Below the pieces are notes generated by a model, which saw only the letters and a list, made by a program, of their open reading frames with translations, did no database searches and had not been told where the DNA came from. A DNA stretch of 64,000 nucleotides, taken from contig CP060228.1 in the NCBI GenBank assembly GCA_023898565.1, positions 776,930 to 840,929 on the forward strand, given 5' to 3'. The position numbers and the translations under genes were made by a program. This stretch comes from Candidatus Nomurabacteria bacterium. GTDB lineage: Bacteria > Patescibacteriota > Minisyncoccia > Phycocordibacterales > UBA918. Shown piece by piece: positions 18,001 to 43,900 of this stretch. Every line of letters starts with the position of its first letter. Position 1 is the first letter of the stretch.

Positions 18001-21000
18001 TGACTGTTTCTGGCGGTACGTTTGATGCCAATGGAGGACTCCTCTATTTCACTGCTGCCGACGCCGGCAACAATGTTTCATTTGGGGGATCAGATGTGGC
18101 AACAGTCCGCTTCAATGGCGCAGGTGGTTCGTGGATCATGAGTGATACTAATGCTACCGCCACTGACTCATTCACCGTTAGCGCAGGTACTGTAACACTG
18201 CCGACAGGTAATTTGGTAGTCGGTTCAGATTTTGTGGTAACCGGGGCAGTAAATCACTCAAATGGCACCGTTGTCTTGACCGCGTCTGATGCCGGCAATC
18301 TCATTACGCTTTCAGGTAGTAGCTTGTACAGCTTGGACCTTACTGGTACGGGGGACTACACCATGACAGACGCTAGCGCCGCTGCGCTCGGTAGTGTCAT
18401 TGTGACTAATGGTGAGTTGATTGCGCCGTCAGCAACCCTTTCGATCGGCGGCTCATTTGATGCAACTGGCGGCGTGTTTACGCACAGTTCAGGCACCGTT
18501 CTCTTCAACTCAGCTGATACTGGAGAATTTGTCGATCCGGGTGCAAATGATTTCTACAATGTCATCTTTGGTAGCGCTGCTGGTGGTTGGACGCTCTTTA
18601 GTGCAACAACGACTCGAAATTTTGCTCTCTCTAGTGCAAACAGCTTCACGCTAGCTTCTGGTGAAAGTCTGACGGTCGAAGGAGTGTTTTCAAACGCAGT
18701 TGGTGGCACGGCTACGACATGGGCAAATACACAGCTCATTCTAAACAGCGGTACTGAGTATGAAATCGGTGCCAAGACCGTGGCGACAGAGTTGTATGAA
18801 AACCTTCAGATTGGAGCAAACACAGACGTAAGCATGTGGAATTCAAGTGCCGTCGCAGTCACTGTTTCTCCGACTGGTTCTCTCTATTCACAAGATCATG
18901 CAGCGGTTAACGGTAGCTTGTACATTTACGGTGATTACCATGTGGCAACTACCACTGAGTACTGGAGCTACGCGACTGACTTTGATGGTGCTGCGCTTGG
19001 CGGTTCGCCGCGAGCGGCAACTGTTGCAATCTCCAGTGGTTCAACAGTGCACGTTGACGGCGGAGTCCTTCGTTTGCTTGGAAATGCTGCCGGAACTACG
19101 ACCGTGTCCAATCAAGGATCAGGTACGTTTGATTTCAAGGTAAAGAACGGCACCTTCAATGCAAGCTCTTATTCGTTCCGCAATCTGTCGGCGCTCGGCT
19201 TACAGTTTACTGGTAACGCGAGTGTACCGTCGCTCAGTTATGGAGACTTTGAGCAAGCGGCTGACAGTACGGTGTTGATTAGCTTGGCATCTACAACACT
19301 AAACGCCAATGCCTCTTTGCTCGTCACAAATACTCGCTTTGCTACTGGTGGCTTTGTAAGCGGTGCAAACGTTTCACTCGACGCCACAACTACCAATAGC
19401 TGGCGCTTCACTGGCGCCACTGGCAATCTCTGGGGTGAGGCGTTCGATGTTGACGGCTCTGATGATTGTAGTTCGGTGCGTTGGGACGACAGCCAGTGTT
19501 TGCTCACTGAGCAATCAGCCTACCGCTGGCGTAATGATGATGGTGGAGAAGGAGCGCCGGCCGGTACTTGGTTTGATTCCAGCTGGACAGATCGAAAGCG
19601 CATCCGAGTCGTAAATGATGACGCCAGCTCGTATGCCGACGTTGCTGTGAAGGTTCCGGTTGATTTTGAGGCTAATATGCAGACAAGCTTTGATGACCTT
19701 CGCTTCACTGATGCGAGCGGTACAACGACACTTTCGTACTGGATTGAAACATACAATACAGGTAGTGATGCGCTCGTGTGGGTAAAGGTACCTAGCTTAG
19801 CTGCTGCAGCCGTAACTGAAATCTATATGTATTACGGTAATGGTGCCGCATCATCACTGAGCGACCCAAGCAACGTGTTTACTGTAGCCGAAGACTTCGA
19901 AGACAATAATATTACTGAGTATTCTGGTGACATTACAAAGTTTGCTACTGCCGGTACCTATGCCTACGGTGGTGGTTATGGTCTTGATGCGTCACCAAAT
20001 CAGAGCGCAAAAGCAACTGACGGCATTGCTCGAACTGACCTCACCGTTGCACAAGGACAAATCATTCGCTACATGCAATACGTCGACACGACCGCGGGTA
20101 GTGGTGATGAAGTGTGTACACTCTTTGCGGTGCAGAGCCCGGTCACCGCAAATCAAAACTACGCCGTGTGTCTGGAGCAGTTTGGTACTGATCGTGTATC
20201 TTTGGTTAAAAATGCAGAAAACACAGACTCTACTGGTACTCTGCTTTCTTCAAAGAACATGACACTGAGCACGGGTTGGTATGAAGTGATGATTGATTGG
20301 CAGACCAATAACGATATCGACGTGTCTGTTTTCAACAGCTCGGGCGCCCTGCAGGCTACCACTTCAGCTACAGATAGTACGTACTCTTCTGGAGGTATCG
20401 GCTTCACGTTCTGGTTCCAGCACGGTGGCTGGGATAGCTACGTGTCATGGCCGCGCACTGCAACGCAGCCAACTGTGTACGTGGGTGCTGAACAGCAGCA
20501 AGGGGGTGCAACCTGGGCAGCGCCACAAGATACGTCAGTTGGCGGCTTTAACTTCGGTGAAACAGCACGCTTGCGCGTTGGTATCAATAACACGGGGCTA
20601 CCAATTGAAAGTCAACAATTCCGTCTAGAATTTGCGCCAAAACTAACTGCACCTAGTTGTGAAGCGGTATCTGGGGGATCATTTACTGCAGTACCAGTAG
20701 CTGCAAGTTGCGGTAGCTCGGCGGTGTGTATGGCTGCTTCCGCCAGTACCACCAACGCTGATCCAACCACTGATCATTTGGTGATTGACGCAGGCAACTT
20801 CCTGCCTGGTGAAATGGTGGTTGAGACAAGTAATCAATCAACTCCATTTGACGTTGACCAAAACCGTTACACCGAGCTTGAGTACGCAATTGCCCTCACA
20901 ATAAACGCAACGAGTGATTCGTACTGCTTCCGTGTTACCGACGGCGGCTCAGCGCTTGACTCATACGCCATCATGCCAGAACTTACCCTGGCGTTTGACC

Positions 21001-21773
21001 CACAGCTTGGCAGTATCAATCTTAATGACGGAGCAGATATCGTGCTTACTCCGGGAACGACGACTACTATCATGGCGTCTACTACGGTCACTGACTACAA
21101 CGGATATGGCGATTTGTTTGCGGCCACGACAACCTTCTACAAGAGCACTGTCTCAGCTGCTTGTACACCAGACAATAACAATTGTTACGTAGCTAGCGGT
21201 GCAGCTTGTTCGTTTACGAACTGTTCTGGCGCTACCTGTACGCTCACCTGTAGCGCGGATTTTGAATTCCATGCTGATGCGACCGATAATGACGGTGGGC
21301 AATTCTGGTATGCTTTTATGGAGGTCTCTGATCAGGGTGGTGCAACTGACTTTGACACATCACTTGGTGTGGACGTACTGACTATTCGTGCGCTCGAGGT
21401 TTTGAATAGCATCAACTATGGTTCAATTGGTATTAACGAAAATACTGGTACCTATAACCCGACAGTGACTATTGAAAACTTTGGAAACGAAGCGATTGAC
21501 GTGCAAGTAGCGGGAACCAGTATGACTGATGGTGCCGCTTCTACCATTCCTGCCTCACAGCAACGCTTCGCTACTTCAACGTTTGATTACGATGTGTGTA
21601 CTGAGTGTCAGACGCTTTCAGAATTGGGCACCAATCTAGAAGTTGATCTCTCAAAACCAACCACGACAACACCAGCAACTACGGATGAGATTTATTGGGG
21701 CATTGAAGTGCCGTTTGGTATCGCAAGTAACCCGCACAACGGCGTAAACACCTTCACGGCGATTTCAGATTAA
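1..21773 (+). CDS. Giant secreted/surface protein (>7,250 aa), 5'-truncated at the window edge. It contains repeated DUF2341-like and LamG units, FN3 domains, CarboxypepD_reg-like domains, beta-helix-like repeats and a conserved C-terminal domain
   Basis: The open frame runs 21.7 kb without a stop and continues upstream of nt 1. The motif 'NFPVYVDLS...DG.DIRVT..DG.TELP.E...ID....TGELHF' recurs, and LamG-type 'LDELRFATTTRS' follows each copy. 'YWWRVRA.DP.G' indicates FN3 domains. G/T/S-rich repeats resemble a parallel beta-helix. Coding status is near certain; the domain names are recalled from memory and not verified by search. Confidence 0.9.
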   Translation, partial: AEDDFALQTYFPKGVGEVKSLEVFNQNKERDAVIPEYHPYVYHCEAGWEYAGEFAPGTLQDLSKQLSVELPTMPSAPGDASSTSSSTSDAVSEIPTEAVATSSSFDEVVDAEATDLSTSSVLDILPEPTPAPLFQMSLLAGTNTSEVATSTELRASSAEDDFLTAGYACRESGLVRQCDELDGGNTSCRVNRVKVADHETIQYAPGWDAVATNDGVMPKPNMLRRLAQFVGFGPDRKDVPDEFEVRQHSADTYHIRPGETMYFKMELAFPAFSEGEYWIEAVGDSEYGLLDPFWSSDWSYRMPITIDNTNGTTDLTEYQVFLELDNSLTDFWTNVQSDGSDIRFAQQLSVNNFSNAGTAKNNWFDTSFGGRVPVTIPPLTVTSDQQNFPVYVDLSLFDAGFWSAVKTDGGDIRVTTSDGTELPIDVVEIDTTAETGELHFLADTLAANAANTFYVYYDKPSASGYAASDPFGSEAVWSGAGYQAVYHFSDDPTTIGNTLTDETGNGNNLIVTTSAQATTTGQMGTAYDFNGSAGYLSASSWTFDGGDPLVTTGLYKMSSSDNSAIWQWGTGAQPDDIEFRPWYTGADTNGSGLHYFGATGGATYSFARATSSWHAFGTIGTTSASDNNLVYEDGVLVETVAQTVGNPTNTDGNGFSVGRTGTNGWWDGLLDELRIATTTRTEDRVKWETVNLSEPTHFYAVSSSQVPDNAANLNWYSTSWERRAKFTIPQGKVESNLTDFPVYVDLAMFGPDFFAAVQNDGADIRVTTGDGVTELPIELVAIDTGAKTGELYFKTDLYRNAANDFYVYYQNEDAIAYARTNTYGSNNVWTNGYLAVYHLEEDMAGVSNLNVYQDSTANQYHGDDYNTSNDKTGLFGKGQEFGDDQNDYLSLPNTVLDGVGDLTTSWWMSTVNGGAQGIVSGAMDNTGAGANEYIVWFNSSTNFQIYYQNAAESFGLSDTITNIDTGNWNYFVSTAEDAIDEVNFYVNGVGDTENPDPQPIAPLTIANGGLVVGQEQDALGGGFQTTQNFEGQLDELRFADVVRDADWVATEYANMGDVTTFIATTTAEELNITDFVELDFWLQHFDSTADEADIWLQVADLPAGEETVIYMYYGATGASSASDELATFSYSTSTDLYYVVDNSGATSISVQSLIDNNQVSIDGGAPVILHQGERTTFGTFTAASVISALGPISGTVTGSGNDGGDTIVPVSFASTTMVVPTNRANESWYLYSPFASTTVRSYIANSGTANQTINIATSSAATITTNPGTNQGVVFESTSPVLLTQRSNTPGDGVVAYPPTLRDLYGVYSNTIYISTVTDNPNPLVTCSGGGSGTVSGITRGEAQSETVCSNGSEGAGNAVRYRSQTYPIVAIQQADSDGNESTVFWPQHEFGTRYYMTNDSAYAAIVCSPRFGDVNLEVHDTVGGLVESATCSPAGNNPGKAYFTNGTGNGDSINFTAGHEIISTNGKPFYVIYEDVAVDQDEKNILGSVQGRKFDGAADRAITFGAEEPATTITYDDNHEQLSYAWYENTTSQTPTVRWPIGPTEDAEEGVAISGSGAVDEGDVLRLRLNLAVSSATTTAQSSAFSLQYAAAAGVGQCSAAAGWTDIGGVGSTTALFSGHDNAVLEDGTTLASTTLSQTTVAGTYEERNYSDFNPYEIGVGEVAEWDWALEVGAVDINTTYCFRMIRATGEELTTYTAYPELITVGPPNVPTNLTYFDNEHTTDLTPVLEFVAVDLAGDDIQYQVQVDDDPAFASIDIDRNSTDHFLNFENVTNPPDKAPFTSGDLIRFTSPTGLASSTTYWWRVRASDPDGSATTSDWSTPTSFTTNQNLETSEWFQTTGAQFDTNSLSSLTTAAGSVSVSGILGTMVGTSVDFDDAVVGNAWAEVDWNDTETSGEIRVQVEYKNGGSWQLIPDSLIPSNSTGISTAPINLRELDTDTYNELRLVATFDGSTLSLQDWTIRWGLRVETPVLGDLFDNQKTVDTLPIFDFISSDPQGDDLEYEISFSTDKTFVTGSSTYNSGSDAGFANLSNGGDTTPFTSGDTVTYTTQPGSPFTNGVTYWWRARAKDPNGDDSWSPWSQPDSFTVDTGLSVSTWFQTTRGQFEEGELTGTIATTSGSVVVNDLVGEYGKTTVTNGTWTTVNLQSEYNTPVVVASGRYTPLGDTQRSIRVRNKTTTSFEVLADNFDSSVGGTTVVDYLVMEAGVWNIDDGGTGTQVIAGTYEDVSDVQANTYAAAGYGADVTFSPAFSSPPAVIATVSSDNDSTWVTAHLNDGNTRNNPPTASAMGLYLGRGFESAVHDPEDIDYIAFETGHGVNNGAEFDADFSTDNHDEPPVSAEAFTSAFSSAPQVVIVMQAAEQGGNGGYAGLYAATPPTTSNYYPFIDEDGTGADRNHTTEPVLTLAFEDVSGVLKRYAGPGLSGTIAGENIIFSDGAGPKYDNFSWNDSTPGGSDILYQIEYEVSPGVYALVPNTAIPGNSAGTSTSPIDLTSVDINTYPVIRPFATLTCSGGTCPQINDWQLEWSEGVNMSGTLKEYDRLTGVATGTIRVAVDGSIIPSTGTVSGGIWSVANVTAFAGEIVTVWVDGATESEEAVAAFVYDGTGDITGVELFEQHLSISADEEAVVTNALLGQNDNLALGDEDIFYNVDGSNNLVVCSAGSCSDANIYVGPGNTYTPASAGGVSVSTHDVINDGFLELDTNTINVSGSWTNNATTSVDTSTINLTAATGTESVYSGENPMQFYNLSFGSGAGEALFTLAAGLDLAGSLTVASGTLDRSDYAISIAGNLTTGTGGFWQGTGTTTFDGAGAKTWRDDNLLTQKVGDVLIDGASTNVTALTNVAAYDITIGANDRLNGTSGKVIYVAGDWINNGTFTAQSSRVEIIEDDRTYPPAVPGSQNWYSDSAFDKRIMIAVNPAEVSADLVNFPLYVDLSTLGTNFWSAVASNGRDIRVTSGDGQTELPHDLVSINTTAKTGELHFLADAVDSATTTYFFVYFDNPAASAYYPTDTYGSQAVWAEYEAVYHFSDSSVAVDSYALDATANERHLLIEGAALATSTGRLGQGINLIGSTGILRNAGFTWTAGNPLVTSGWYKMPASSNESLWQWGTGASPDNLEFRPWYNTTGGLHYFGVTSGATYTLTPRDTVNWLHFTTVGATTTGQDNLVYQNAIEVERVTQTVANPYNDAATGLQVGRNGTGGSLQAQIDEFRITTSPRSAGWVQAEYSNQKTPKIFYATTSVQTYTPDLVLDEATHNIKMGGSTFYDLTIDDATTSAAFIDTAVTVSRNFVVVNGDVTLPTTRLTVGGSFTNTGYFQHNNAEVRFTSNSPASITLNGTEFYNSFYNVTFSGNGTFTFLDTNATTTNDMSITKGTVVFPSGKLTIGGHLSVTGTGIFNANNGTVEFISEDNESITTRGSSFNNVVFGVNEGGDGWYSADWSERAAIRVASTSVAGYIANFPVYVDLSMLGASFWGGVATDGRDIRVTSADGKTELPVEIAEISYGAQTGELHFLAPALSPISDTTFYIYFDNTDATEPDAASQYGSEAVWAEYEAVYHFNGDPVEGVADVSGNGRDLAPTVGTPSTTAGVLGTALDTTSSNVMLEDADWTWTAGEDLVSSGLYFMTGFDTGALWEFGSSCATDDCLAFMPWYDNATRGYHRFGETSGNDYNFTRDNSKWHHFTTNGRATNGEAVRIFEDGILRGSYLQTGTGENPSQTGLQIGRYVTNTYMDIDIDELRFATTTRSQQWIVTEYNNLTDVDTFYSTSTESYLDVVSSFTLNEALTDVHGDVTIYYADLVAPTNNFTIGGSALNVGGSYNPNNATTTFDSTDAGETVAFGDGAFYNLSFNGAGGGWTIATTTVLNNASLVTGADFTLAPNTTMSVAGTFQNSFNSAATTWTGSTLVLTGGDYTVTDRLDSGDTYAKLVVSGDSDLVMWNSSASTSTVLDTSSLYMPAFAGTPGLLRIYGAYERTAGTEHWSYDTDFDGTDLTGGGERPATVEIGRGSSIYLATSTTLSVQGAAGATTTVSAISGIYSLNVNAGTADIAYASFQNVGPKGLYLTNGTVLSSLTATEFSIAGGRSGITVDAATVNAQPSTEYTNVTFGTSSANSVYEPAWTDQVVITLQSSVIPGDLSNYPVYVDLSTLGSSFWSGVQSDGRDIRVTTDNGTKLPIDLVEIDASAQTGELHFLASSISSNNDTSFYIHFGNPAATAYAADDTYGANAVWTDYEAVYHFNEDPTVQITDMTGNGRNLYATVGTPATTTGLIGTALDTTASNVRLENVGWTWQAGDDLVSSGLYFMSGNDTGALWQFGTGNGADNGTYLSFMPWYNTATRGYNRFGVTSGSDYDFARNSTIWHHFTTNGRATAGESIDIYEDNLLQDSVTQLGSSENPTNTGLRIGAYQSTTYMDIDVDELRFSTDPRSIDWIDVEYRNFTDPTSLYATSTALTDSFNVSVIGVPTTFWLFSAGTGNRYGEAFDNDDGDPGSIQWDDSNFSITISGVVYNDDGTTPATAPLCNASTEVVTVVLDGVDTYTAACDPRDGSFEVTGIVYTGEPEIVTYISSSAATPQTNVAIYDETTGTGTVSGGVMTVARPNVIDGSVLVLIAGKDDDPTIMAAGGWTQIDVLGNTTGDQIDTGAWYRVVADAGTEAATYDFPADNGEGYSYWMGTLINVDTSTPIDVASTWSKLQNQYDPAAPSITTVTDGALVLGAWYTYRDTEMITPVYGWSDRGKNIVGPETNNLSVSSKSMLTQGATGAATTSGIISSRETHVAQFAFRPASAPTATSSIVAAAVTKTPLGNTGLPYDTITLRDQTSAYGTAAAAANIVVTRPEIENGDVMVLIVGKEDDFNITPPAGWVLGDERIEATGNDMYTAIWYRVVGNAGAEPSTYDFVNNDTTTEEYSYWIGSFSGVDTNNVFDVTPAWSNLQNDSSPAAPAVTTASDGAYVLATWYVIDDGAMDMPGSPWITLAQDVVTNNRLLAVAGRYMATNGNTGAAVMTGGSTDDVNVGQFALRPAALSVADTVADMDLYQNRVIVRHEDISPLSIADMAIFDNDDAFDLPFTATIGATDLLTVLPGSGLFVWSNRTFAPAGEVILAGSGATAADGSLTIGAGATLQANAADGVTIGGSLHLASGAVFQGATSLIDFTATNGGQTITSAASSTITLHDVSFTGVGGAWAVQTPLVSETDILVSTGTVSGVANITVNDGSFYGDGTVSLTGGTALLKKTNTLGGARAWTFNNLTLGSGGVAGVTTPASSATTTVRGVLTIASAHFLDALGSTFDLQGSGNVLVESGTLLEGTSTFRYSGLTPNILRTPYYNLKIDTDSGLSVTANAPTVGLQILGNLTVGASGTSTLNVNTNDPALAVTNNVYIGTKGTVLGSNSALFSVAGSWDNDGVFTANGGSVEFVKTGGSATIAAGNSSFGTVSIAGTASYTMSESATTTGNLTLSTGSFTLAGGSTLAVGGIFSSQMSDAATTWAGTTLSLYGGQSYNINAKNRSETFDTVVVSGSTHPRVWNATSSAVVTTSGSSLYSRNHLGVIGDLYIFGDYVNSSFADYWSYAEDFDGAVLGSPRTANVLVEDNGSVLYTGGSLTVEGDASASTTIASQTGGTYDFTIGGSTDVLLDHYVVRDTTSAGLVFTGVPSVTDISNGDFEVAIADGTAMTVGGTVISANQAMNFTGIRFATTTAINAYNVTATGTSASAWRFVNVIGNLDGEAKDIDPAGDPGYVVWEDSAAIINISGTVYSDEGATPMGITVCDGITKSIELSIAGLTFASTTCGIGTGAYTFTGISYGLSDTLTVYINGEAEKAVTVTQDPVSSISGLDLYQNRVIVRHQSGAPLTIADMAAWDSDDDPDVLFDAETTGTDTLVLPADTKLIVWTGRTFAPNGDVTVSGGGAGASFDGTLELQTGATFTAANGETHTIGGSLIAGAGALFTPAQSSIVFTTDDAGRTIDTNNAGFYNLSLTGSGDWTVTDTTLTVANDYLQNAGAVTLPTATTTIGGAMTVSGGTFDANGGLLYFTAADAGNNVSFGGSDVATVRFNGAGGSWIMSDTNATATDSFTVSAGTVTLPTGNLVVGSDFVVTGAVNHSNGTVVLTASDAGNLITLSGSSLYSLDLTGTGDYTMTDASAAALGSVIVTNGELIAPSATLSIGGSFDATGGVFTHSSGTVLFNSADTGEFVDPGANDFYNVIFGSAAGGWTLFSATTTRNFALSSANSFTLASGESLTVEGVFSNAVGGTATTWANTQLILNSGTEYEIGAKTVATELYENLQIGANTDVSMWNSSAVAVTVSPTGSLYSQDHAAVNGSLYIYGDYHVATTTEYWSYATDFDGAALGGSPRAATVAISSGSTVHVDGGVLRLLGNAAGTTTVSNQGSGTFDFKVKNGTFNASSYSFRNLSALGLQFTGNASVPSLSYGDFEQAADSTVLISLASTTLNANASLLVTNTRFATGGFVSGANVSLDATTTNSWRFTGATGNLWGEAFDVDGSDDCSSVRWDDSQCLLTEQSAYRWRNDDGGEGAPAGTWFDSSWTDRKRIRVVNDDASSYADVAVKVPVDFEANMQTSFDDLRFTDASGTTTLSYWIETYNTGSDALVWVKVPSLAAAAVTEIYMYYGNGAASSLSDPSNVFTVAEDFEDNNITEYSGDITKFATAGTYAYGGGYGLDASPNQSAKATDGIARTDLTVAQGQIIRYMQYVDTTAGSGDEVCTLFAVQSPVTANQNYAVCLEQFGTDRVSLVKNAENTDSTGTLLSSKNMTLSTGWYEVMIDWQTNNDIDVSVFNSSGALQATTSATDSTYSSGGIGFTFWFQHGGWDSYVSWPRTATQPTVYVGAEQQQGGATWAAPQDTSVGGFNFGETARLRVGINNTGLPIESQQFRLEFAPKLTAPSCEAVSGGSFTAVPVAASCGSSAVCMAASASTTNADPTTDHLVIDAGNFLPGEMVVETSNQSTPFDVDQNRYTELEYAIALTINATSDSYCFRVTDGGSALDSYAIMPELTLAFDPQLGSINLNDGADIVLTPGTTTTIMASTTVTDYNGYGDLFAATTTFYKSTVSAACTPDNNNCYVASGAACSFTNCSGATCTLTCSADFEFHADATDNDGGQFWYAFMEVSDQGGATDFDTSLGVDVLTIRALEVLNSINYGSIGINENTGTYNPTVTIENFGNEAIDVQVAGTSMTDGAASTIPASQQRFATSTFDYDVCTECQTLSELGTNLEVDLSKPTTTTPATTDEIYWGIEVPFGIASNPHNGVNTFTAISD
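8770..13290 (+). repeat. Three tandem intragenic repeat units of about 1.6 to 2.0 kb (DUF2341-like plus LamG-like) inside the giant gene, with near-identical DNA stretches
   Basis: Units begin at about 8770, 10357 and 12390 (NFPLYVDLSTLG / NFPVYVDLSMLG / NYPVYVDLSTLG). The DNA around 9030 and 10615 is nearly identical ('gctgtctgggcggagtatgaagcggtgtatcacttta'). Confidence 0.8.
15062..17850 (+). repeat. Dispersed intragenic duplicate of about 400 nt ('DLYQNRVIVRH...RTFAP.G.V') at about 15062-15460 and about 17458-17850
   Basis: The peptide blocks DMDLYQNRVIVRHEDISPLSIADMA and GLDLYQNRVIVRHQSGAPLTIADMA are colinear for about 130 aa. Confidence 0.7.
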
Positions 21774-21777
21774 TCTT

Positions 21778-23349: not shown

Positions 23350-23350
23350 A

Positions 23351-23382
23351 AAGAGTTGGGGATACCCCAACTCTTTCTTTTG
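23351..23382 (+). terminator. Rho-independent terminator after the FN3 gene
   Basis: A perfect hairpin AAAGAGTTGGGG-ATA-CCCCAACTCTTT is followed by CTTTTG. Confidence 0.7.
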
Positions 23383-27964: not shown

Positions 27965-28005
27965 AGCAACAGCCACTGTTATCCAGCAGTGGCTGTTGCT
28001 TTTTA
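27965..28005 (+). terminator. Rho-independent terminator
   Basis: The 13-bp perfect stem GCAACAGCCACTG / CAGTGGCTGTTGC has loop TTATCCAG and is followed by TTTTT. Confidence 0.8.
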
Positions 28006-28037
28006 GGTACTTTTTATCGATAATATGTAGCATACAC

Positions 28038-28994
28038 ATGAATAGGGTTGTGCAAAATTTCGTGATGCTTGTTCTTTTTTTACCTGTGCTTTTTTTTAGC
28101 ATGGGTGCGCAGCATGTATTTGCTGGCTTTGGTATCACACCGCCGTATGTGCGAAATACAAGCCTAACTCGCAATTCAACGTACGAGCAGCAGATTCTTC
28201 TCGTTCGCAGTGACACGAATGTCGGGCAGATAGCTGAAATTTCTGTTGATGCTCCAGAAATTGAAAGTTGGATACAAATCGTTGAAGGTGAAGAAATTCA
28301 CATGCCCAAGGGTGCTCAAAAAGTGCCAATGACAGTGCGAGTTACAGTACCGTCTGACGCTGAATTTAAGGATTACGAGGGTGCCATTCGCATCCGTACA
28401 CTACCTGAAGATGGGAAGGTGTCACCGGGAGCTGTCAGTATTTCCCTCGGCGCACTGGTAGATATTAGTCTCTCTGTTATTGATAAACAAATCAAAGATT
28501 TTCGTGTTCGCAAAATTTCAGCGGCAGATTTAAACGAAGGACACAAAGTAGCCTGGCTCTATTTTCCGGGAAAAATTGATTTTGACATGATGATTGAGAA
28601 TACCGGTAACGTGGACATTGCACCGTCGAAAATTGAATTTAGAATTTTTGATAGAGCAGGTAAGGTGTTACTTGAAGAAACAAAAAACATCGGAAAGCTT
28701 GTAAAGGTTGCGCCGTATGGAACAGAGACAATTACCGCAGAGCTCCCGACTAGGCTTCCAGCCGGTAGTTATGTCGCTAGATACAGAATCTTCAATGGTG
28801 AGGACATTAAGCAGGAAGGAGACATTAGCTTAAATATCCTTGCGTACGGCACATTGCAGACAGCAGGTTTTGGTTTCATTGGTCTTTCTTTTGCTCACAA
28901 GATTTCAGTACTTCTTCCAATCTTCGCACTTGTTATTGCCGGTATTTACGCGTGGCAGTCACGACAAAAGGATAAAGTTCGTCGTCGCAGGTAA
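28038..28994 (+). CDS. CscA-like (DUF916/DUF3324-like) cell-surface protein with a signal peptide and a C-terminal TM anchor plus basic tail
   Basis: The signal peptide is followed by 'FGITPPYV...' and a 'DYEGAIRIRT' motif reminiscent of DUF916. The C-terminus is 'LLPIFALVIAGIYAWQSRQKDKVRRRR'. It is paralogous to the genes at 44196 and 45187. The family assignment is from memory. Confidence 0.55.
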   Translation: MNRVVQNFVMLVLFLPVLFFSMGAQHVFAGFGITPPYVRNTSLTRNSTYEQQILLVRSDTNVGQIAEISVDAPEIESWIQIVEGEEIHMPKGAQKVPMTVRVTVPSDAEFKDYEGAIRIRTLPEDGKVSPGAVSISLGALVDISLSVIDKQIKDFRVRKISAADLNEGHKVAWLYFPGKIDFDMMIENTGNVDIAPSKIEFRIFDRAGKVLLEETKNIGKLVKVAPYGTETITAELPTRLPAGSYVARYRIFNGEDIKQEGDISLNILAYGTLQTAGFGFIGLSFAHKISVLLPIFALVIAGIYAWQSRQKDKVRRRR

Positions 28995-30430: not shown

Positions 30431-31588
30431 ATGCACAGAGCGTCCAACGCGTTCACTGTGCTCCAAGCTACCGCAGCTATCGTAGCTACAGCAATCATTT
30501 TTTGGTCGCTTGGCTTACCAACATTCCGCTTTGCGGAAGCTGCAAATGTCACGACGTTTAGCAACACCCTTTCTAGCTCTGCTCCAGCAGCAGCCGCTGA
30601 CCATACCATTGCGTTCACTACTCCAACCGGAGTGGCCAACGGAGAAACAATCACGGTTGATTTCTCAGATGGACCGTTTGTGGTTGGTTCAGTCGACTTC
30701 ACTGATATTGATGTAGCCACATCATCTGGTGAGTTCTCACTGGCAGCTGATTGTTCAGGCTCAGAAATGGCTAGCGCTGCTTTTTCAGGCACAACTCTCA
30801 CCATCACTATGTGTGCTGGTGACGGCAGCTTGATCGCAGCAAATGGAACCACAACGATTGAGATTGGTACTAATGCTACAAACCAAACTCTTGGTGATCA
30901 GCAACTAACCAATCCAGCAGCTGGTTCATACGAAATCAACCTTACTGCAGGTTCTGTTGATACAGGCGCAACACGTGTTGCAATTGTTGAAACAGTTACT
31001 GTTACCGCTTCAGTTGACACCCAGTTTACATTTACAGTAACTGGCGTTGCTGGAGGTCAAACAGTTAACGGTGAAACCACTGGCGGTACAACGACAGCAA
31101 CTACCATTCCATTTGGTCAGCTGGAAATTGATACCGCGAGTACTGCAGCACAGGATTTGGTTGTTGTGACCAACGCACGTAATGGTTTTGTTGTAACGGT
31201 AGAGGCAGATCAACAGCTTACATCGTCTAATGGTGCTGATATCGACAGCTTCCGCAACGGTAACGGAGATACTACTCCAACCGCCTGGGAAGCACCGTCA
31301 CAGACGCTTGGCGATGAAGATACATACGGTCACTGGGGTATTACATCTGATGACGACACATTGACATCAGGTCTCACCAATCCGTTCAATGTTGGTTCTG
31401 GCGGCGATCGATTCGCAGCCGTACTGACTACGCCAACAGAAGTATTTCGTCACACTGGGCCATCAAATGGTACAACACAGGGTGAAGGAACCACTCGAGT
31501 TGGTTACAAGGTCGAGGTTTCCTCACTACAGGAAGCTGCCGACGACTACACTGCTACACTGACATATGTAGCAACGCCGGTTTTCTAG
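30431..31588 (+). CDS. Secreted surface protein (385 aa), T/G/S-rich, with a C-terminal WxL-like motif 'DDYTATLTYVATPVF'. It has its own promoter region and a strong terminator, so it may be an abundant surface component
   Basis: The signal peptide reads 'AIVATAIIFWSLGLPTFRFAEA'. The C-terminus is colinear with the end of the 2,063-aa protein ('GDYTADLQYIVIPVF'). Confidence 0.65.
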   Translation: MHRASNAFTVLQATAAIVATAIIFWSLGLPTFRFAEAANVTTFSNTLSSSAPAAAADHTIAFTTPTGVANGETITVDFSDGPFVVGSVDFTDIDVATSSGEFSLAADCSGSEMASAAFSGTTLTITMCAGDGSLIAANGTTTIEIGTNATNQTLGDQQLTNPAAGSYEINLTAGSVDTGATRVAIVETVTVTASVDTQFTFTVTGVAGGQTVNGETTGGTTTATTIPFGQLEIDTASTAAQDLVVVTNARNGFVVTVEADQQLTSSNGADIDSFRNGNGDTTPTAWEAPSQTLGDEDTYGHWGITSDDDTLTSGLTNPFNVGSGGDRFAAVLTTPTEVFRHTGPSNGTTQGEGTTRVGYKVEVSSLQEAADDYTATLTYVATPVF

Positions 31589-35234: not shown

Positions 35235-35978
35235 ATGAACGCATTTATTCAGAAGTATCTTCTGCAGAGAAAAAGAAAAAGTACGAGAACGGTACGCTTC
35301 TTGTTCTCTGCAGTTTTCACCGCTGCGATGTTGCTTGGTGCAGCAGCAATCACGAGTACTTCTGATGTTTCGTATATTCGGCTCGCTACTTCTGCTGCCA
35401 CGGTTGAGTCAGGCCAACGTTTTTCAATTGATGTATACGCCTATGCTCACGTGCCTGTAAACGCCGTTGATATAACTCTTCACTTTGATCCAGATGCTGT
35501 CACCGTCCTTTCGGTTGACCGAGGTCAATCTGTGTTAACTATTTGGACTGAAGAGCCGGTGATTAAAAACGGCACAGTATCATTAAGCGGCGGTACGTTT
35601 AGGCGCGGGTTTGTTAAAGAGCACAAGATTGCAACTCTCGACATGGTGGCTAAAGAGACTGGTCAGAGCACGTTTAGCGTCTCAGACGTCATGCTTTTGG
35701 CGGGTGACGGCGCCGGTAGCCCTGTTTCAACAACTGAGACGGATAGCTCGTCAGTAAGCTTGTATGTGTATGACGAGAATACTTCTCCAGAAAACATAGG
35801 CGTAGACGTTAAAATTAAAGTGGTTTCCGACATTGATGGTGATGGAAAGGTTACATTGACTGACATAAGCGCATTTATGGCCGCTTGGCATAATAAAAAC
35901 ACACTTTATGACTTCAATAACGATGGCAAAATGTCCTTCCGAGACTTTTCGATCATACTGGCAAATTTCTTTTTCTAG
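35235..35978 (+). CDS. Protein combining a cohesin-like domain and a C-terminal dockerin-like domain
   Basis: The cohesin-like block is 'RFSIDVYAYAHVPVNAVDITLHFDPDAVTVLSV'. The dockerin repeats are 'DIDGDGKVTLTDISAFMAAW' and 'DFNNDGKMSFRDFSIILANF'. Confidence 0.6.
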   Translation: MNAFIQKYLLQRKRKSTRTVRFLFSAVFTAAMLLGAAAITSTSDVSYIRLATSAATVESGQRFSIDVYAYAHVPVNAVDITLHFDPDAVTVLSVDRGQSVLTIWTEEPVIKNGTVSLSGGTFRRGFVKEHKIATLDMVAKETGQSTFSVSDVMLLAGDGAGSPVSTTETDSSSVSLYVYDENTSPENIGVDVKIKVVSDIDGDGKVTLTDISAFMAAWHNKNTLYDFNNDGKMSFRDFSIILANFFF

Positions 35979-37991: not shown

Positions 37992-40900
37992 ATGTTGTGG
38001 AGGAAACGCTTTTGGAGTCGGTGTATTGTTCCTGTGGCTGGATTGCTGCTGGCCTTAGTGTGGGTAGAAGCAATTCGCTTCGCTGTTCCACTTGACCGGC
38101 TGATTTCGGTATTTACCCTCGTCCAGGCGGCAGAGGTTACTATCGACAGTGCCGTAAGCACTACCCCCACTGAGCATCATATTTTGGGATCACAGACAGT
38201 TTTTGTGAGTGATCAGGTTGGCTATAAGTTTTATACTAACAGCAATGGTACTTGTGTGTACAACAAAACAAGCAATGGTGGCACGAGCTGGGGCACAGAA
38301 GTTACCTTCGATAGCCAGACCGACTGTTGGGGAGTAGTGGTTTGGTACGATCAGTGGACTGCCGGCGACACTGGGAATTACATCCATATCATCAGCGCAG
38401 ATAGCAGCAGCGACGTTGTTTGGTACAACCGTCTAGACACCACATCTGATACGCTGTTGCTCGGCTCAACTCCAGTAAATGTCTCATCAAACTCTGGTCA
38501 AACCGGCACACTTGCAACGGCTGCTAACAACCCAAGTATCACAAAGGCTACTAATGGCGTACTGTACATTGCCATTGCAGACAACACTGATAGTTATGTC
38601 GTTGAATGTTCTGCGAGTTGTGGCTCAGCAACCAGTTGGACAGAAACTGGCACAAACCCCATGGACCTGCAGCCAGACAAGTCACTCATCTTGCCGCTTG
38701 CAGACGGAGATATAATTCTCATTCAACGAGATCGGTCCGCAGATGATATGCGCAGCAAAATTTGGGATGATAGCGCCGGTACCTGGTCGGGCACTTGGAC
38801 GATAATCGATGCGAACGCTATTGAAAACAGCACCTACGATCCTTCTTTTGCCGCTATGGCAGATCCTGATTCGGGAGATATTTTTTTAGTGTATATAGAC
38901 AACGGGACAACGGGCGCGATTGGTGGAGGCAATGACAACATCAGAACGGCCAAATATTCAGGGGGTTCGTGGACCAATACTGCCAACGTGGTTACCAATA
39001 GCGCAATGGGTCTGACAAAACTCTCAATGGCGATGGATGGAAATAATTCTGAGATTTATGTTGCCTTTTCTGCGCGAGTCACTCCAGGCACGGCAAACAC
39101 AGCAAATATCTATTGGGCAACATCGACCGCTGCCATGAGTTCATGGGGGTCTGTGCAAGGCCCAGTCAACAGCACACCAGACGATATGTACGGAGTTGAT
39201 CTCAACAACTACAACAAGGAGCGCATTTATGTTTCATGGTATCAGCCAGCAATCGATGACATCTTAGGTGACACAATCGCGAACATTTCACCGATTACCG
39301 TTGTTAGTTCATTTGGTACTCAGAGTAGTGAAGTCAGGGCAAGTAGTACGGATACGTATATTGGTGGAGGCTTTGCAATCGTTGAAAATTCAGCTAGTCG
39401 AAATGTTACCGACATCATTATTTCGGAGAACGGCAGTGTTGATGCTGCAAATGCTCTAGACAACATTAAGCTCTACTACGACCTCGACACCAGCGCGCCG
39501 TACGATTGTGCGAGTGAATCATACAGCGGTACTGAAAGTCAGTTTGGTAGTACGGACACCAATGGCTTTTCCGGAGCAGATGGCGTTTCTGCTTTTACTG
39601 GCTCGGTCGGTATTTCTCCGACGACGGCAATGTGTGTGTATGTTGTCATGGACGTGCTTAAAGTAGCGGTAGACGGCAGTACACTGGATGTTGAGATTTC
39701 CAATCCAGCCACTGACGTGCTTGTGAGTGGAAGCGTGACGGCCGTGCCTCCGACTGCTCAGCAAATCGGCGGCACTACAAATATTGTTGACTCAGACTTA
39801 ACACAAACTCATTATCATTGGCGTAATGACGATAATATTGAACTGCTGGCAACTTCTCGAACGGGTGGTGCAGAGGACATTCCGCTGACAGCGCTGCAAA
39901 AAGAAACACCAGTACGTCTGCGTTTTGGGGTCTCCAACGAAGGGTCAACCACGACACTTCCAACAACATTGCGACTCGAATATGCAACCAATCCCTCAGT
40001 CTGCTCAGCTGCAACGGGGTGGACAGATATTGATGTGGTGGATGATGCTTGGAACTTGTATGATTCGACATACGTGGTAAACGGTACGGATACTACAGAT
40101 ATAAGCGTCGCCTCGGGAGGCGTAGACAATGAAAATAGTGTTTTCCTAACTCCAAACGGCGGACAGCTCGACACTTCCTCTGAAACAGGTTCGCTTGCTT
40201 TCTTGCCAACAAATTGGACGGAGGTTGAATATGCAATTGTTGCCTCAAGCTCTGCACAAGAGGGTGATGGCTACTGTTTTAGACTAACCAATGCAGGTGA
40301 ACCATTACCGCAATACAATACCTATCCATCGGCCGTCATTGCGGCAGATGTGCGCGTGCGTGCTACAAGTACCCAGATAGCTGCAGCCGACATACCAGCG
40401 GATAACGTGTACTTGGGTGGCGCATTTACTATTACGGAAAACAGCTCGGCGAGAACGGTGTCTGGAATCACAATCACTGAAAATGGCACTGTTGATGCTT
40501 CTGCTGGTCTGGCGAATATTCGTTTGTATTATGATCTCGACACCAGCGCGCCGTACGATTGTGCGAGTGAATCATACAGCGGTACTGAATTTCAGTATGG
40601 GGCAACCTCAAGCGCATTTAGTGCGGCAAATGGCACGTCCACTTTTAGTGATGCTGTTGGTATTACCACCACGCAAACGATGTGTGTGTACGTTGTGGCG
40701 GATGTTACAGAAACCGCTCAAAATGGAGAGAATATAAACATTTTACTTGCTTCACCCGCAACCGACATTGTGGTGTCAGGCGGGGGCACGGTCTCTCCAT
40801 CAACGCCGCTTGATATAAATGGCTCAACAACATTGGCGGGAGCAATCGTCACACAAACTGGATATCATTGGCGCTATGATGACGGTGACGAAACCTCCAG

Positions 40901-43900
40901 TGGTGCCACGTCGGCAACAGGGGGGGCAGAAAACACGGCGCTGGCTGATCTTGAGAACGGTAGCGCAATCAGGTTGCGTATGCAAATTTCTAATGAGGGA
41001 TCGACGACCTCTGTGCCTCGTCAATATGGGCTGGAATACGGAGTTAAAAGCACCACTTGTGATGCGATTAGTGTTTGGACGGACGTGGATGGCGGTGGGC
41101 TCATTTGGGCAATGAGTGATTCAAGCAATTTGACGCACGGCGCTGACACTACAGATGTTTCTGTTGGTTCAGGAGGTGTCAGTAACCCCGGTGGTAAAAC
41201 ATTTTTAACACCAAATGGAGGGGTGCGTGATATCTCATCATTTTCAGCTACTACCACACTTACGAATAGCCAATTTACAGAATTTGAGTACAGCATCACA
41301 ACGACAGAGGACACGCCATACGAGACTGATTTCTGTTTTCGTTTAACGCAAAATGGATCACCGCTATTGGCTTACACTCAGTACGCAGAACTCAATATTG
41401 AACCAAAGCGCGATTTTAAGATACAGCAGGGAGAATCAATTGTAAGTGGAACCGGTCTCACACTAACTGCGGGAGTCGACTACGAAGCACCAAGTTCTGC
41501 TTCTACTGCTTTTGTTCGGATTACAAATTCACACATGACTGGCGCAGGGCGCGATGCAGCAGGCGGTGCACAAAATGCAGACGACTACGGTGCGTACATC
41601 TCAAATCCAGCAAATCTTACAACGAGTTTTACCATCTCACGCGATACTGACTCAATCAATAATACCTATGTCGCTTGGGAAATTATCGAGTATGTCGGCG
41701 CGGCCGGCGGAGACAATGAAATTATTGTGAGAGACCAAAGCACGCTGAGTCTCGGTACTACCGCAAATACTGCCACTGGTTCCGCGGTGCCAACGGTCGC
41801 TGACGATGCGGATGTTGTGGTGTTCATTACTGGGCAGATGCATCATACCGGTAATCGAACTGAGACGTATTCCCACCAGTTCACATCAACGTGGAGCGCA
41901 GGTTCTGGTGAGCCAACGTTTGAGCGCGGAGATAATGGTGGTAATGCGGCAGAAGTGAGCTATGCGGTAGTAGAGTTTACTGGCCTCAATTGGAAAGTGC
42001 AGCGCACTGAGCACAATTACGCTGCCGCCGGAGTGACAGAAACTGAACCAATTACTGCAGTAAATAGTCTTGGACGAACATTTATACATGCACAAAAGCG
42101 ATACACAGCAGTTAGCGGCATTGGTAATGTGGGGCACGAAGTCTGGCTCTCGAGTATTGGAGCGGTTTCGTTTGAGGTCAACAATCTGGCAACAATCACA
42201 GGGGTGACACACACCTCCGTTGCCTGGATTATTGAAAATACTCAAACCGGAACTGGTGCCATGTCTGTGCAGCGTAGTTCTGGTAATACTACGGGTGGAA
42301 CGGAGCCTGTTCTTATTTCACTACCTATTTCTACGAGTCTCAACTCTGTAAATAATGCTTCTATCTTTGTCACGACAGACGTTAATCAAACGGGAGACAC
42401 GATGCCCCGACCAATTGCCGGTGCCTTCATCACATCAACTTCTACCTACCAGCTTTGGCGCAGTGAAGCCTCTGGCGGTGGTGTTTTGAGCTATCGTACG
42501 GAGATTGTGCAATGGCCGGCAGCTGACCTCGCCATTCGGCAAAACTATTACCGTCTGTATGCGGATAATGATGACCTTACCCCCTCCGATCCGTGGCCAA
42601 TTGGTGCGTACGACTTGGGTGAAAATGCTCCCATTACTGCTGTCGATGAGCCGCCGGCGGATGGTGGACATATTCGAGTACGTATGACGTTGCAAATTGC
42701 AAACGCAACACTGCCAAGTGGGTTCTTGACTACGAAACTACAATACGGTGAGCTAGAAACGACTTGTTCTGCTGTTTCTGTCTGGAGCGATGTGGGGGCA
42801 GCTGGAAGTGGTGCTATCTGGAGAGGATACGATGCTGCAGGAATAGTTGATGGCGCTTCTTTGTCTGGTAATCCACCGACTGGTGGTGATTTGCTTATCT
42901 CAGTGGCTGATCGAGCGGGTCGCTACACTGAAAGTAACCCTAGCTCTGCAAACCAGTATGCAACTTTGCGAACTGAGGATATTGAATATGATTGGCACAT
43001 TGAACACAACGGGGCTCCACAGCGTACAACGTATTGTTTTCGCATGGTTAAGGCGGATGATACTGAACTAGACGGATATTTTTATTACCCACAAATTCGC
43101 ACTGAAGGGTATAGTCCTGCAACGCAGAATTGGCGTTGGTATGATGACGAGACAAACGAAACCCCTTCGCTCGCACTTGCTGCCGAAAATGTTACGCCAA
43201 CCGGTCTGCCTGACCAGAATGAAATAAAACTTCGCATCAGCTTGACTGAGCTTAAGAATCTGTCGCAACTAAATGCCCGCTTCAAGTTGCAATATTCTGA
43301 GTCGCCAAACTTTGGCATTGCGTATGACTTGTCTGCGACCACATCGTGTACAGCCAGCTCCTTGTGGTGTTACGCTGACGGTGCAGGGGTCGATACTGCA
43401 CTCATCACTACAAGCGTGCTTAGTGACAGTGACGGCTGTGTCGCAGGGGTTGGTGATGGTTGTGGTACACATAACGAAGCAGGATACGCAGTAAATGGTT
43501 TTACCCATTATGGCAACAGAACGATTGAAAATGAGTTTACGATTAAATATAGCAGCGCCACGCGCAACTTCGGTAAAGTGTATTACTTTAGGTTATACGA
43601 CGTCACCAACGATGAGCCTGTCGCAGTGAATAATGGCTACACGATTCCCTCAATCGGAGTTGATCCAACATCACTCACGTTATCGGTTAACGGTGTCAAC
43701 AGCGGAACGTCTATCGCAGGAATCACAACTGACGTGACGACTACCGCAACGGGCGTGGATTTCGGCTCTTTGCCAGTCGGGAGCTCAGTAGCTGCGGCAC
43801 AGGATATTGATGTGAGCACCAATGCGACGGAAGGGTATCAACTACTTGTATTCAATACACAAGGATTATTAAATTCATACGGTGATGCAATCAATCCAAT

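What the first reader, a model, noticed from the sequence alone, without database searches (positions are those of the whole stretch)
19500..43640. Unassigned repeat domain 'W-R-x-D-D-G ... Y-C-F-R' present six times across two proteins
Domains of about 150-180 aa start with 'Y/W-R-W-x-x-D-D' and end with 'x-Y-C-F-R-[LMV]-x-x-x-G-x-x-L-x-x-Y-x-x-Y-P'. They occur at about 4570-5110 and 20500-20990 in the giant gene. There are four more copies in the 2,063-aa gene, at about 39810-40340, 40870-41400, 42510-43090 and 43130-43640. All copies share an internal 'RLRF/RLRV' strand and a conserved Cys and Trp. I cannot place this pattern in a named family. It may be a lineage-specific ligand-binding beta-sandwich.
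Basis: seen in the sequence. Interest (0 to 1): 0.6.

Follow-up and report, generated by a model that had tools for sequence, protein, structure and literature searches.

The report
Unnamed beta-sandwich module of Patescibacterial surface proteins
The six repeats are real copies of a widespread but still unnamed 180-residue extracellular beta-sandwich domain that builds the shafts of giant cell-surface proteins in ultrasmall (Patescibacteria) bacteria, so this is a new family of a familiar kind and not a new mechanism.

Summary
Exactly six copies of a ~180-aa domain occur, two in the giant ORF and four in the 2,063-aa ORF. A profile built only from non-window homologues finds all six (E 3e-11 to 2e-59) and nothing else in any frame.

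Pfam, NCBIfam and PDB sequences do not cover the domain. AlphaFold2 gives a very confident nine-strand beta-sandwich (pLDDT 96.4). It has no significant Foldseek neighbour in the PDB.

The family is large: 4,445 50%-identity clusters, with up to 21 head-to-tail copies per protein. Members are mostly Patescibacteria, but some are labelled Chloroflexota or Nitrospirota, so it is not strictly lineage-specific.

- A Cys pair is present or absent together in 426 of 438 instances, which implies an extracellular disulfide.
- The second giant-gene copy is split. Its first strand (YRWRNDDG) lies 315 aa upstream of the body, with a DUF2341 module in between. Homologues carry other domains (BNR propeller, DUF2341+LamG) at the same loop.

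The 2,063-aa gene sits in an operon conserved in 70 or more of 78 Patescibacterial genomes, and its layout resembles Firmicute WxL clusters.

Best reading: a stalk/scaffold module of surface adhesins. A ligand-binding role is untested.

The parts
4563..5123 (+). Repeat-domain copy gA (giant ORF aa 1521-1707, c3-like type)
   Evidence: HMM i-E 2e-32 with the non-window profile. 35% identical to copy c3 (BLASTP E 3e-27).
19503..19556 (+). Detached first strand of copy gB (..TEQSAYRWRNDDGGEGA, giant aa 6501-6518)
   Evidence: Found by regex. Splicing it to the body raises the HMM score by 15-28 bits and restores a full-length alignment.
19557..20501 (+). 315-aa insertion inside copy gB: DUF2341 followed by a segment of about 180 aa with no Pfam hit, which looks ConA/LamG-like by eye only
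   Evidence: Pfam DUF2341 E 6e-22 on window:19554-20456. Homologues P0188 and P0205 carry DUF2341+Laminin_G_3 at the same site.
20502..20990 (+). Body of copy gB (giant aa 6834-6996, strands 2-9)
   Evidence: HMM i-E 3e-11 (non-window profile) and 4e-35. The alignment starts at profile position 13-19, so the body lacks its own strand 1.
39330..39785 (+). 'X' domain preceding c1 (aa 447-598, no Pfam hit), first half of a duplicated X+repeat unit
   Evidence: aa 447-778 aligns to aa 788-1131 at 45-52% identity.
39804..40349 (+). Repeat-domain copy c1 (2,063-aa ORF aa 605-786)
   Evidence: HMM i-E 2e-25. AF2 model m82bd97581782 has pLDDT 96.4 and is a nine-strand beta-sandwich.
40353..40835 (+). 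Second 'X' domain (aa 788-948)
40854..41408 (+). Repeat-domain copy c2 (aa 955-1139)
   Evidence: HMM i-E 2e-23. 45% identical to c1.
42540..43112 (+). Repeat-domain copy c3 (aa 1517-1707)
   Evidence: HMM i-E 2e-40.
43122..43664 (+). Repeat-domain copy c4 (aa 1711-1891). Variant with four Cys (SC..WC..C..GCGTHNE) and YYFR.
   Evidence: HMM i-E 2e-59. The AF2 two-domain model has pLDDT 89.7 and the same strand order as c1.
43668..44180 (+). C-terminal ~172-aa beta-sandwich domain of the 2,063-aa protein (putative anchoring or partner-binding domain)
   Evidence: At the protein's C-terminal end in every hit inspected (103 of 211 collected proteins carry it, 26 rows printed). Also present in ORF 30431-31588 (E 4e-32). 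No Pfam or PDB hit.
30431..31588 (+). Small 385-aa secreted protein that shares the C-terminal domain of the 2,063-aa protein ('small partner')
   Evidence: hmmsearch E 4e-32. BLASTP 33% over 189 aa, E 6e-14.
44196..45212 (+). 338-aa protein: signal peptide, about 270 aa predicted ectodomain, C-terminal TM helix. Conserved immediate neighbour.
   Evidence: Present downstream in 72 of 78 related loci. Paralogue of the next gene (hhalign 100%, E 8e-45).
45151..46881 (+). 576-aa paralogue with an additional LytR_C domain. Gives sub-threshold WxLIP_PGBD (DUF916) matches.
   Evidence: Present in 70 of 78 loci. LytR_C E 2e-10. WxLIP_PGBD E 1e-3 here and 1.5e-4 to 0.24 in 3 of 4 orthologues tested, always over profile positions 17-119 of 121, and all below the 27.3-bit cutoff.

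Best explanation
The six repeats are copies of an uncatalogued extracellular domain of about 180 residues.

**Fold.** It folds as a nine-strand beta-sandwich with a 64-residue excursion between strands 4 and 6. In about half of family members a disulfide links that excursion to strand 8 (the Cys of YCFR).

**Most likely role (inferred).** It is a rigid stalk/scaffold module of cell-surface proteins. Strung head to tail, it projects functional domains away from the cell. Its strand1-strand2 loop is a permissive site where whole foreign domains are grafted (DUF2341, DUF2341+LamG, BNR propellers and others). The second giant-gene copy is such a graft.

**Context of the 2,063-aa protein (inferred).** An N-terminal signal/anchor is followed by a weakly BNR-like region, two X+repeat units, a segment of about 375 aa with no family assignment, two more repeats, and a conserved C-terminal domain. 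That C-terminal domain probably holds the protein on the cell surface together with two adjacent membrane-anchored paralogues (signal peptide + ectodomain + TM helix). This layout is analogous to Firmicute WxL clusters.

**Shown versus inferred.** Shown here: homology of the copies, family size, absence from libraries, a confident beta-sandwich model, Cys covariation, the split architecture and its recurrence, and operon conservation. Inferred: the disulfide itself, surface location, the stalk function and the anchoring mechanism.
For: - **The copies are real and homologous.**
- **Family size and tandem arrays.** 4,445 clusters at E<=1e-3 and 644 at E<=1e-30. Proteins carry 10-21 back-to-back copies with linkers of 1-3 residues, for example P0063 with 13 copies. 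This is the signature of stalk domains in fibrillar adhesins, as that term is used in PMC10952558.
- **Fold.** AF2 pLDDT 96.4 and pTM 0.92 for c1. The c4 model has the same strand order.
- **Disulfide.** Among 438 domain instances, Cys is at both positions in 216, at neither in 210 and at one only in 12. The Cys count is even in 430 of 438.
- **Secretion.** The 2,063-aa protein and many homologues have N-terminal hydrophobic leaders. Some homologues have type IV pilin-like leaders (P0063 N_methyl 21.1 bits; P0064 and P0099 by eye).
- **Split copy.** The motif lies 315 aa upstream of a body that lacks strand 1, and splicing adds 15-28 bits. The same split occurs in P0089, P0101, P0147, P0188, P0205 and P0208, with inserts of about 155-380 aa (motif-to-body offsets 171-391). 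These inserts are BNR_2, DUF2341+Laminin_G_3 or unassigned.
- **Context.** The gene order 617-aa / 2,063-aa / 338-aa / 576-aa is conserved in 48-72 of 78 Patescibacterial loci. Large and small proteins share C-terminal domains in two pairs. Three paralogous proteins with signal peptide, ectodomain and TM helix give recurrent sub-threshold DUF916 matches.
Against: - No experiment or solved structure exists for any family member.
- Foldseek gives only weak generic beta-sandwich matches (best E 7e-3, TMq <=0.42), so the fold class is assigned by eye from the secondary structure.
- In the window itself the copies are not in long arrays. There are two isolated copies in the giant protein, and X+repeat units plus one tandem pair in the other protein.
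- The near-invariant Arg, Glu and Arg (in RLR, TExE and YCFR) could form a binding site instead of a structural network.
- The Cys covariation counts related sequences, not independent events.
- The WxL analogy rests on architecture and sub-threshold hits only. Pfam WxL is not detected in the C-terminal domain.
Confidence: 0.6

Rival explanations
1. The domain is itself a ligand-binding (for example carbohydrate-binding, CBM-like) module. The conserved Trp residues and the Arg/Glu/Arg cluster would form the binding site, and multiple copies would provide avidity for host-cell surface glycans.
For: The weak top Foldseek neighbours include accessory beta-sandwich domains of glycoside hydrolases (GH66, GH123, lacto-N-biosidase) and cohesin. 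There are near-invariant polar residues (R 0.99, E 0.92, R 0.97) and conserved aromatics. The proteins also carry lectin-type domains (LamG, BNR) and sit in a locus with cohesin/dockerin genes.
Against: None of the structural matches is significant (0 hits at E<=1e-3). Arrays of 10-21 near-contiguous copies are more typical of stalks. The separate binding-type domains are grafted into this domain, which suggests the domain is the carrier and not the binder. No Pfam CBM family recurs among the 48 members scanned.
Confidence: 0.25
2. It is a highly divergent member of an already named beta-sandwich family (GEVED, cohesin, CARDB/NEW3-like, Ig-like/MG) that profile-to-sequence searches simply miss.
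For: GEVED (PF20009) appears in 4 of 48 members at E 0.07-3. Cohesin and complement MG domains are the top, non-significant Foldseek hits. The motifs TE-E-Y and RLR superficially recall GEVED-type motifs; this last point is my own reading.
Against: The GEVED matches fall in different registers in different members (domain residues 110-177 versus 16-56) and reach only 9-12 bits against a 24.4-bit cutoff. GEVED is 78 profile positions long, against about 180 here. Pfam Cohesin hits the true cohesin genes of the window but none of these domains. TM-scores are <=0.42.
Confidence: 0.12
3. The resemblance is due to compositional bias (a Thr/Ser/Ala/Gly-rich giant protein) and short chance motifs, and there is no real domain.
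For: Both proteins are compositionally biased and highly repetitive.
Against: An independent profile gives E 3e-11 to 2e-59 for all six copies and nothing else in six frames. There are thousands of homologues. The AF2 model has pLDDT 96.
Confidence: 0.01

Closest known systems
Stalk domains of bacterial fibrillar adhesins (Ig-like, Big, CnaB, GEVED and similar; the concept as used in PMC10952558)
   Same: It is an extracellular beta-sandwich of 100-200 aa that is repeated head to tail (up to 21 copies), is combined by domain shuffling with lectin or propeller 'tip' domains, and is found in giant surface proteins with a terminal anchoring region.
   Different: There is no sequence or significant structural match to any catalogued stalk family. 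The domain has a 64-residue excursion and a covarying disulfide. It is mainly Patescibacterial.
Split or nested beta-sandwich domains of Gram-positive pilus adhesins, where a vWFA domain is inserted into an Ig-like/CnaB-type domain (for example RrgA and GBS104; from my own knowledge)
   Same: A beta-sandwich acts as a carrier, with a whole foreign domain inserted in one loop. Here the strand1-strand2 loop carries DUF2341, DUF2341+LamG, a BNR propeller and others.
   Different: The fold family is different and the inserts are different. There is no evidence of isopeptide bonds or sortase signals. The nesting is inferred from sequence only.
WxL gene clusters of Firmicutes (small WxL protein, large WxL protein, WxLIP = DUF916-DUF3324-TM; PMC9772566, PMC10599100)
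   Same: The cluster logic matches. A large multidomain secreted protein and a small secreted protein share a C-terminal domain of about 175 aa. They lie next to proteins with a signal peptide, a ~270-aa ectodomain and a TM helix, which give recurrent WxLIP_PGBD-like matches.
   Different: Pfam WxL is not detected and the dual Trp-x-Leu motifs are absent from the C-terminal domain. All DUF916 hits are below the gathering score. No LPxTG protein was identified. The phylum is different. This concerns the context of the repeat domain, not the repeat domain itself.
Cohesin (PF00963) and complement/alpha-2-macroglobulin MG domains
   Same: These are the best, non-significant Foldseek neighbours of the c1 model, and they are beta-sandwiches of similar size.
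   Different: E >=7e-3, TMq 0.28-0.42 and rmsd 8-12 A. There is no Pfam Cohesin hit on any copy, although the model detects the genuine cohesins encoded nearby.

Membership tests
Any Pfam-A or NCBIfam family | A profile HMM hit at or above the curated gathering score over the repeat region | tested here: not met
   There is no hit over the repeats in the two window proteins, in 10 multi-copy homologues or in 48 isolated domains even at E<=10.
GEVED domain (PF20009) | A hit of at least 24.4 bits, in a consistent register that includes the GEVED motif | tested here: not met
   4 of 48 members hit, at 9-12 bits. The registers are inconsistent (110-177 versus 16-56).
Cohesin | A Pfam Cohesin match, or a significant structural superposition on solved cohesins | tested here: not met
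   Foldseek gives E 7e-3 to 2e-2 and TMq 0.27-0.35. There is no Pfam hit.
Any solved structure (PDB) | A sequence-profile hit at E<1e-3, or a Foldseek hit at E<1e-3 | tested here: not met
Fibrillar-adhesin stalk domain (functional class) | Tandem head-to-tail repetition within secreted proteins | tested here: met
   Homologues carry 10-21 contiguous copies (P0063, P0064, P0065, P0067). In the window there is only one tandem pair (c3-c4).
Fibrillar-adhesin stalk domain (functional class) | A beta-sandwich fold with N and C termini at opposite ends | tested here: inconclusive
   The beta-sandwich is shown.
Fibrillar-adhesin stalk domain (functional class) | Extracellular location | tested here: inconclusive
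   Hydrophobic or pilin-like N-terminal leaders and paired-Cys covariation support it. There is no localisation data.
WxL cluster (context of the 2,063-aa gene) | [quoted passage not shown] | tested here: not met
   No Pfam family hits the C-terminal domain in 10 orthologues at E<=10.
WxL cluster (context of the 2,063-aa gene) | A large and a small secreted protein that share the C-terminal domain | tested here: met
   The 2,063-aa protein pairs with ORF 30431-31588 (E 4e-32 and 6e-14). The giant ORF pairs with ORF 26058-27941 (E 5e-21).
WxL cluster (context of the 2,063-aa gene) | An adjacent DUF916-DUF3324-TM protein (WxLIP) | tested here: inconclusive
   The architecture of signal peptide, ~270-aa ectodomain and TM helix is read from the sequences. 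WxLIP_PGBD hits reach E 1.5e-4 to 0.24 over the full profile in 4 of 5 members of the 576-aa family and 1 of 4 of the 338-aa family, all below the 27.3-bit cutoff. DUF3324 is not detected.
Nested (split) domain architecture for copy gB | Strand 1 and strands 2-9 separated by an autonomous inserted domain, and still forming one fold | tested here: inconclusive
   The sequence evidence is strong: a gain of 15-28 bits on splicing, and recurrence in at least 6 homologues with different inserts.

The most novel reading that the evidence does not exclude
The repeat is the signature 'display scaffold' of a previously unrecognised surface-protein system of Paceibacteria/Parcubacteria that resembles the WxL system. 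In this reading, giant proteins are built from this domain, with binding domains grafted into its strand1-strand2 loop. They are held on the cell by a conserved C-terminal domain that docks onto DUF916-like membrane proteins encoded next door. The system would mediate attachment of these ultrasmall episymbionts to their hosts.
Probability: 0.25. Interest if true: 0.65.

Novelty: new member of a known kind. Interest (0 to 1): 0.42.

Why it matters
Patescibacteria make up a large share of bacterial diversity and are thought to live attached to other microbes. The proteins that mediate attachment are mostly 'hypothetical'.

This domain is one of the recurrent building blocks of their giant surface proteins. 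It has at least 4,445 sequence clusters and is not in Pfam. Defining it would help in three ways:
- It would improve annotation of thousands of giant ORFs.
- It would mark the grafted or adjacent domains (DUF2341/LamG, BNR propellers) as the likely host-binding parts.
- It would flag a conserved operon with a possible anchoring mechanism that can be tested in the few cultivable lineages.

It is a useful family definition. It is not a mechanistic surprise.

Tried and rejected
- **Named families.** Pfam and NCBIfam scans of whole proteins, of homologues and of 48 isolated domains gave no family.
- **GEVED.** It looked tempting because of the TE-E-Y and RLR motifs. The hits are weak and fall in inconsistent registers, so I rejected it.
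- **PDB sequence-profile searches.** Searches with A1, A4, A5 and A6 gave nothing credible. The 6nyr and 9vy3 hits are repeat or composition noise.
- **Foldseek, two-domain model.** It only found tandem sandwiches (integrin alpha legs, Fabs) at TM ~0.2, which is uninformative.
- **Foldseek, single domain.** Neither the PDB nor BFVD gave a significant hit.
- **The search for related loci.** It only worked with the narrow c4+C-terminal alignment A5. The genome survey therefore covers the C-terminal module and not the whole family.
- **Weak extra HMM hit.** The hit at giant aa 6305-6412 (E 0.03-0.14) was judged spurious, because it lies in another repeat type.
- **Literature.** Searches for this domain in Patescibacteria papers found only general remarks on giant DUF2341/FhaB proteins (PMC11809585).


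Full report
**Setting**

The window carries a giant ORF that is open at its 5' end (nt 21-21773, at least 7,250 aa) and a 2,063-aa ORF (nt 37992-44183), both on the + strand. They sit among genes for secreted or surface proteins (fn3, Big, cohesin/dockerin) and a MacB-type ABC transporter. The giant protein contains several DUF2341 and Laminin_G_3 modules. The closest relatives of the 2,063-aa gene's C-terminal part are all in Patescibacteria MAGs (Nomurabacteria, Kaiserbacteria, Paceibacteria and others) at 43-58% identity. The exact protein occurs in two ENA metagenome assemblies with no Pfam annotation on record.

**Checking the observation**

Those scans used a profile that includes the window copies. 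I therefore rebuilt the profile from non-window homologues only. It still finds all six copies, at i-E 2e-25, 2e-23, 2e-40 and 2e-59 in the 2,063-aa protein and 2e-32 and 3e-11 in the giant protein, and nothing else. Pairwise identities are 21-45%.

Copies c1 and c2 belong to a duplicated two-domain unit. Residues 447-778 align to 788-1131 at 45-52% identity, so an unassigned 'X' domain of about 155 aa precedes each of these two repeats.

**Is it a known family?**

- Pfam-A and NCBIfam give no hit over the repeats in the window proteins, in ten multi-copy homologues or in 48 isolated domain sequences scanned at E<=10.
- The only recurrent weak Pfam name, GEVED (PF20009, a stalk domain of CshA-type fibrillar adhesins; PMC10952558), hits 4 of 48 members at 9-12 bits and in inconsistent registers. 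I reject it.
- Profile searches of PDB sequences find nothing credible.

**Family size and distribution**

An exhaustive profile search of 1.84 billion cluster representatives returns 4,445 proteins at E<=1e-3, 2,631 at E<=1e-10 and 644 at E<=1e-30. Individual proteins contain up to 21 copies. Several are near-pure head-to-tail arrays of 10-13 copies with linkers of 1-3 residues. Every name on record is 'hypothetical protein'. Organism labels include Patescibacteria/Parcubacteria, and also Chloroflexota (P0063, 13 copies) and Nitrospirota (P0119). P0063, P0064 and P0099 begin with type IV pilin-like leaders; Pfam N_methyl is borderline for P0063, and the other two were read by eye. Orthologues of the 2,063-aa protein keep the same four-copy layout, for example P0078 with copies at 602-786, 954-1137, 1510-1705 and 1707-1889.

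**Structure**

With a 48-sequence alignment, AlphaFold2 models c1 at mean pLDDT 96.4 and pTM 0.92. The model has nine strands (residues 2-10, 30-33, 39-46, 56-64, 85-87, 129-133, 139-149, 158-165 and 178-181) and a long, mostly irregular excursion between strands 4 and 6. A second model, covering c4 plus the C-terminal domain, has pLDDT 89.7 and shows the same strand order for c4, followed by a second beta-sandwich.

**Family-wide features**

In 438 full-length instances the most conserved positions are:

| Position | Conservation |
|---|---|
| Second Arg of RLR | 0.99 |
| Leu of LxY | 0.92 |
| Glu of TExE | 0.92 |
| Y-x-F-R of YCFR | 0.93 / 0.93 / 0.97 |
| Final Pro | 0.87 |

The Cys after strand 4 and the Cys of YCFR are present together in 216 instances, absent together in 210, and unpaired in only 12. 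The number of Cys per domain is even in 430 of 438. The sequences are related, so this is not a formal probability. Even so, the pattern is what a structural disulfide in a secreted domain would give. Copy c4 belongs to a subtype with a different four-Cys pattern (SC...WC...C...GCGTHNE) and YYFR.

**The split copy**

The body of the second giant-gene copy aligns to the profile only from position 13-19 onward. The family's hallmark first strand, YRWRNDDGGEGA, lies 315 residues upstream at nt 19521. The intervening segment contains DUF2341 (E 6e-22) followed by a stretch of about 180 aa with no Pfam hit.

Splicing the distal strand to the body raises the score by 15 bits with the independent profile and by 28 bits with a profile of 432 non-window instances. 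It also restores a full-length alignment. The native 30 upstream residues do not align as strand 1.

The same arrangement recurs in P0089, P0101, P0147, P0188, P0205 and P0208...YRWRNDDGGE, then an insert of about 155-380 aa, then ATW/ATFAAAEDT... (motif-to-body offsets 171-391). The inserts differ. They are BNR_2 propeller repeats, 'WRIEKR' repeats, DUF2341+Laminin_G_3, and unassigned sandwiches. P0168 shows a second insertion site after strand 3.

I conclude that the strand1-strand2 loop is a recurrent graft site and that the copy is nested and not truncated. This is inferred from sequence.

**Genomic context**

The last ~172 residues of the 2,063-aa protein form a separate domain. In every hit inspected it lies at the extreme C terminus (103 of the 211 collected proteins carry it). 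It also ends the small 385-aa ORF 30431-31588 (E 4e-32; 33% identity). The giant protein's C-terminal ~270 residues are likewise shared with the 627-aa ORF 26058-27941 (E 5e-21).

In 78 related loci the 2,063-aa homologue is followed by homologues of ORF 44196-45212 in 72 loci and of ORF 45151-46881 in 70. It is preceded by homologues of the 617-aa ORF in 48 loci and of the cohesin/dockerin ORF in 40; these upstream counts are limited by the flank length fetched.

The two downstream proteins are paralogues (hhalign 100%, E 8e-45). ORF 27996-28994 is a third member of the same family. All three read as a signal peptide, an ectodomain of about 270 aa and a C-terminal TM helix. Members of this family give repeated, full-length but sub-threshold matches to WxLIP_PGBD/DUF916.

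A large protein, a small protein sharing its C-terminal domain, and a DUF916-like membrane protein together form the defining layout of Firmicute WxL clusters (PMC9772566, PMC10599100). However, Pfam WxL is not detected in the C-terminal domain, and no PDB relative exists for it. I therefore treat this as an analogy and a lead. It is not membership.

**Interpretation**

The evidence best fits an extracellular stalk/scaffold module that is usually disulfide-braced. It is a new sequence family of the well-known class of beta-sandwich building blocks of surface adhesins, and it has a permissive loop for domain grafting. But it has no positive support, and the architecture suggests that the binding functions reside in the grafted or neighbouring domains.

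The finding is real and worth a family definition. It is an incremental addition and not a surprising one.

Noticed in passing
window 43668-44180 and 30431-31588; also 20960-21770 and 26058-27941: There are two 'large + small' protein pairs that share C-terminal domains. The 2,063-aa protein pairs with the 385-aa ORF (33% over 189 aa, E 6e-14). The giant ORF pairs with the 627-aa ORF (32% over 306 aa, E 5e-21). Neither C-terminal domain has a Pfam hit. [quoted passage not shown]
   Followed up: partly
window 27996-28994, 44196-45212, 45151-46881: Three paralogous proteins each have a signal peptide, an ectodomain of about 270 aa and a TM helix (hhalign 95-100%). They give recurrent sub-threshold WxLIP_PGBD (DUF916) matches. 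Two of them follow the 2,063-aa gene in 70-72 of 78 Patescibacterial loci. ORFs 44196-45212 and 45151-46881 overlap by 62 nt, so the true start of the second may lie further downstream.
   Followed up: partly
window 39330-39785 and 40353-40835: An unassigned 'X' domain of about 155 aa (no Pfam hit) is duplicated together with the repeat domain as a two-domain unit (aa 447-778 versus 788-1131, 45-52% identity).
   Followed up: partly
window 28997-30103, 32744-34537, 35235-35978: Cohesin and dockerin type I modules (plus Big_6, Big_13 and DUF4215) occur in secreted proteins of this Patescibacterial locus. The cohesin+dockerin ORF 35235-35978 is conserved upstream of the 2,063-aa gene in 40 of 78 loci. 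This suggests cohesin-dockerin assembly of surface complexes.
   Followed up: no
window 21-21773: The giant ORF is open at its 5' end. It is a mosaic of many other internal repeats, including DUF2341+LamG modules at about aa 400-700, 2900-3260, 3410-3790 and 4090-4440, and long repeats at 3800-4100, 5390-5700 and 6150-6470, at 34-62% identity.
   Followed up: partly
homologues P0063, P0064, P0099 (not in the window): Proteins made almost entirely of 5-13 tandem copies of this domain begin with type IV pilin-like leaders (..KG|VTLLE..). This suggests 'modular pilins' that carry the domain on pili in Chloroflexota and Patescibacteria.
   Followed up: partly
homologues P0008, P0010, P0024, P0026, P0030 (alignment A3): [quoted passage not shown] GG ... 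S-x-S-F ... GE ... S-x-N-F-x-L-x-SG' region directly before a c4-type repeat. The nature of this N-terminal region is unknown.
   Followed up: no
window 37992-39330: The N-terminal ~430 aa of the 2,063-aa protein gives only a weak BNR_4 hit (E 0.015). It shows sialidase-like 'S-x-D/N-G-G-x-x-W' motifs, so it may be a beta-propeller head domain.
   Followed up: no
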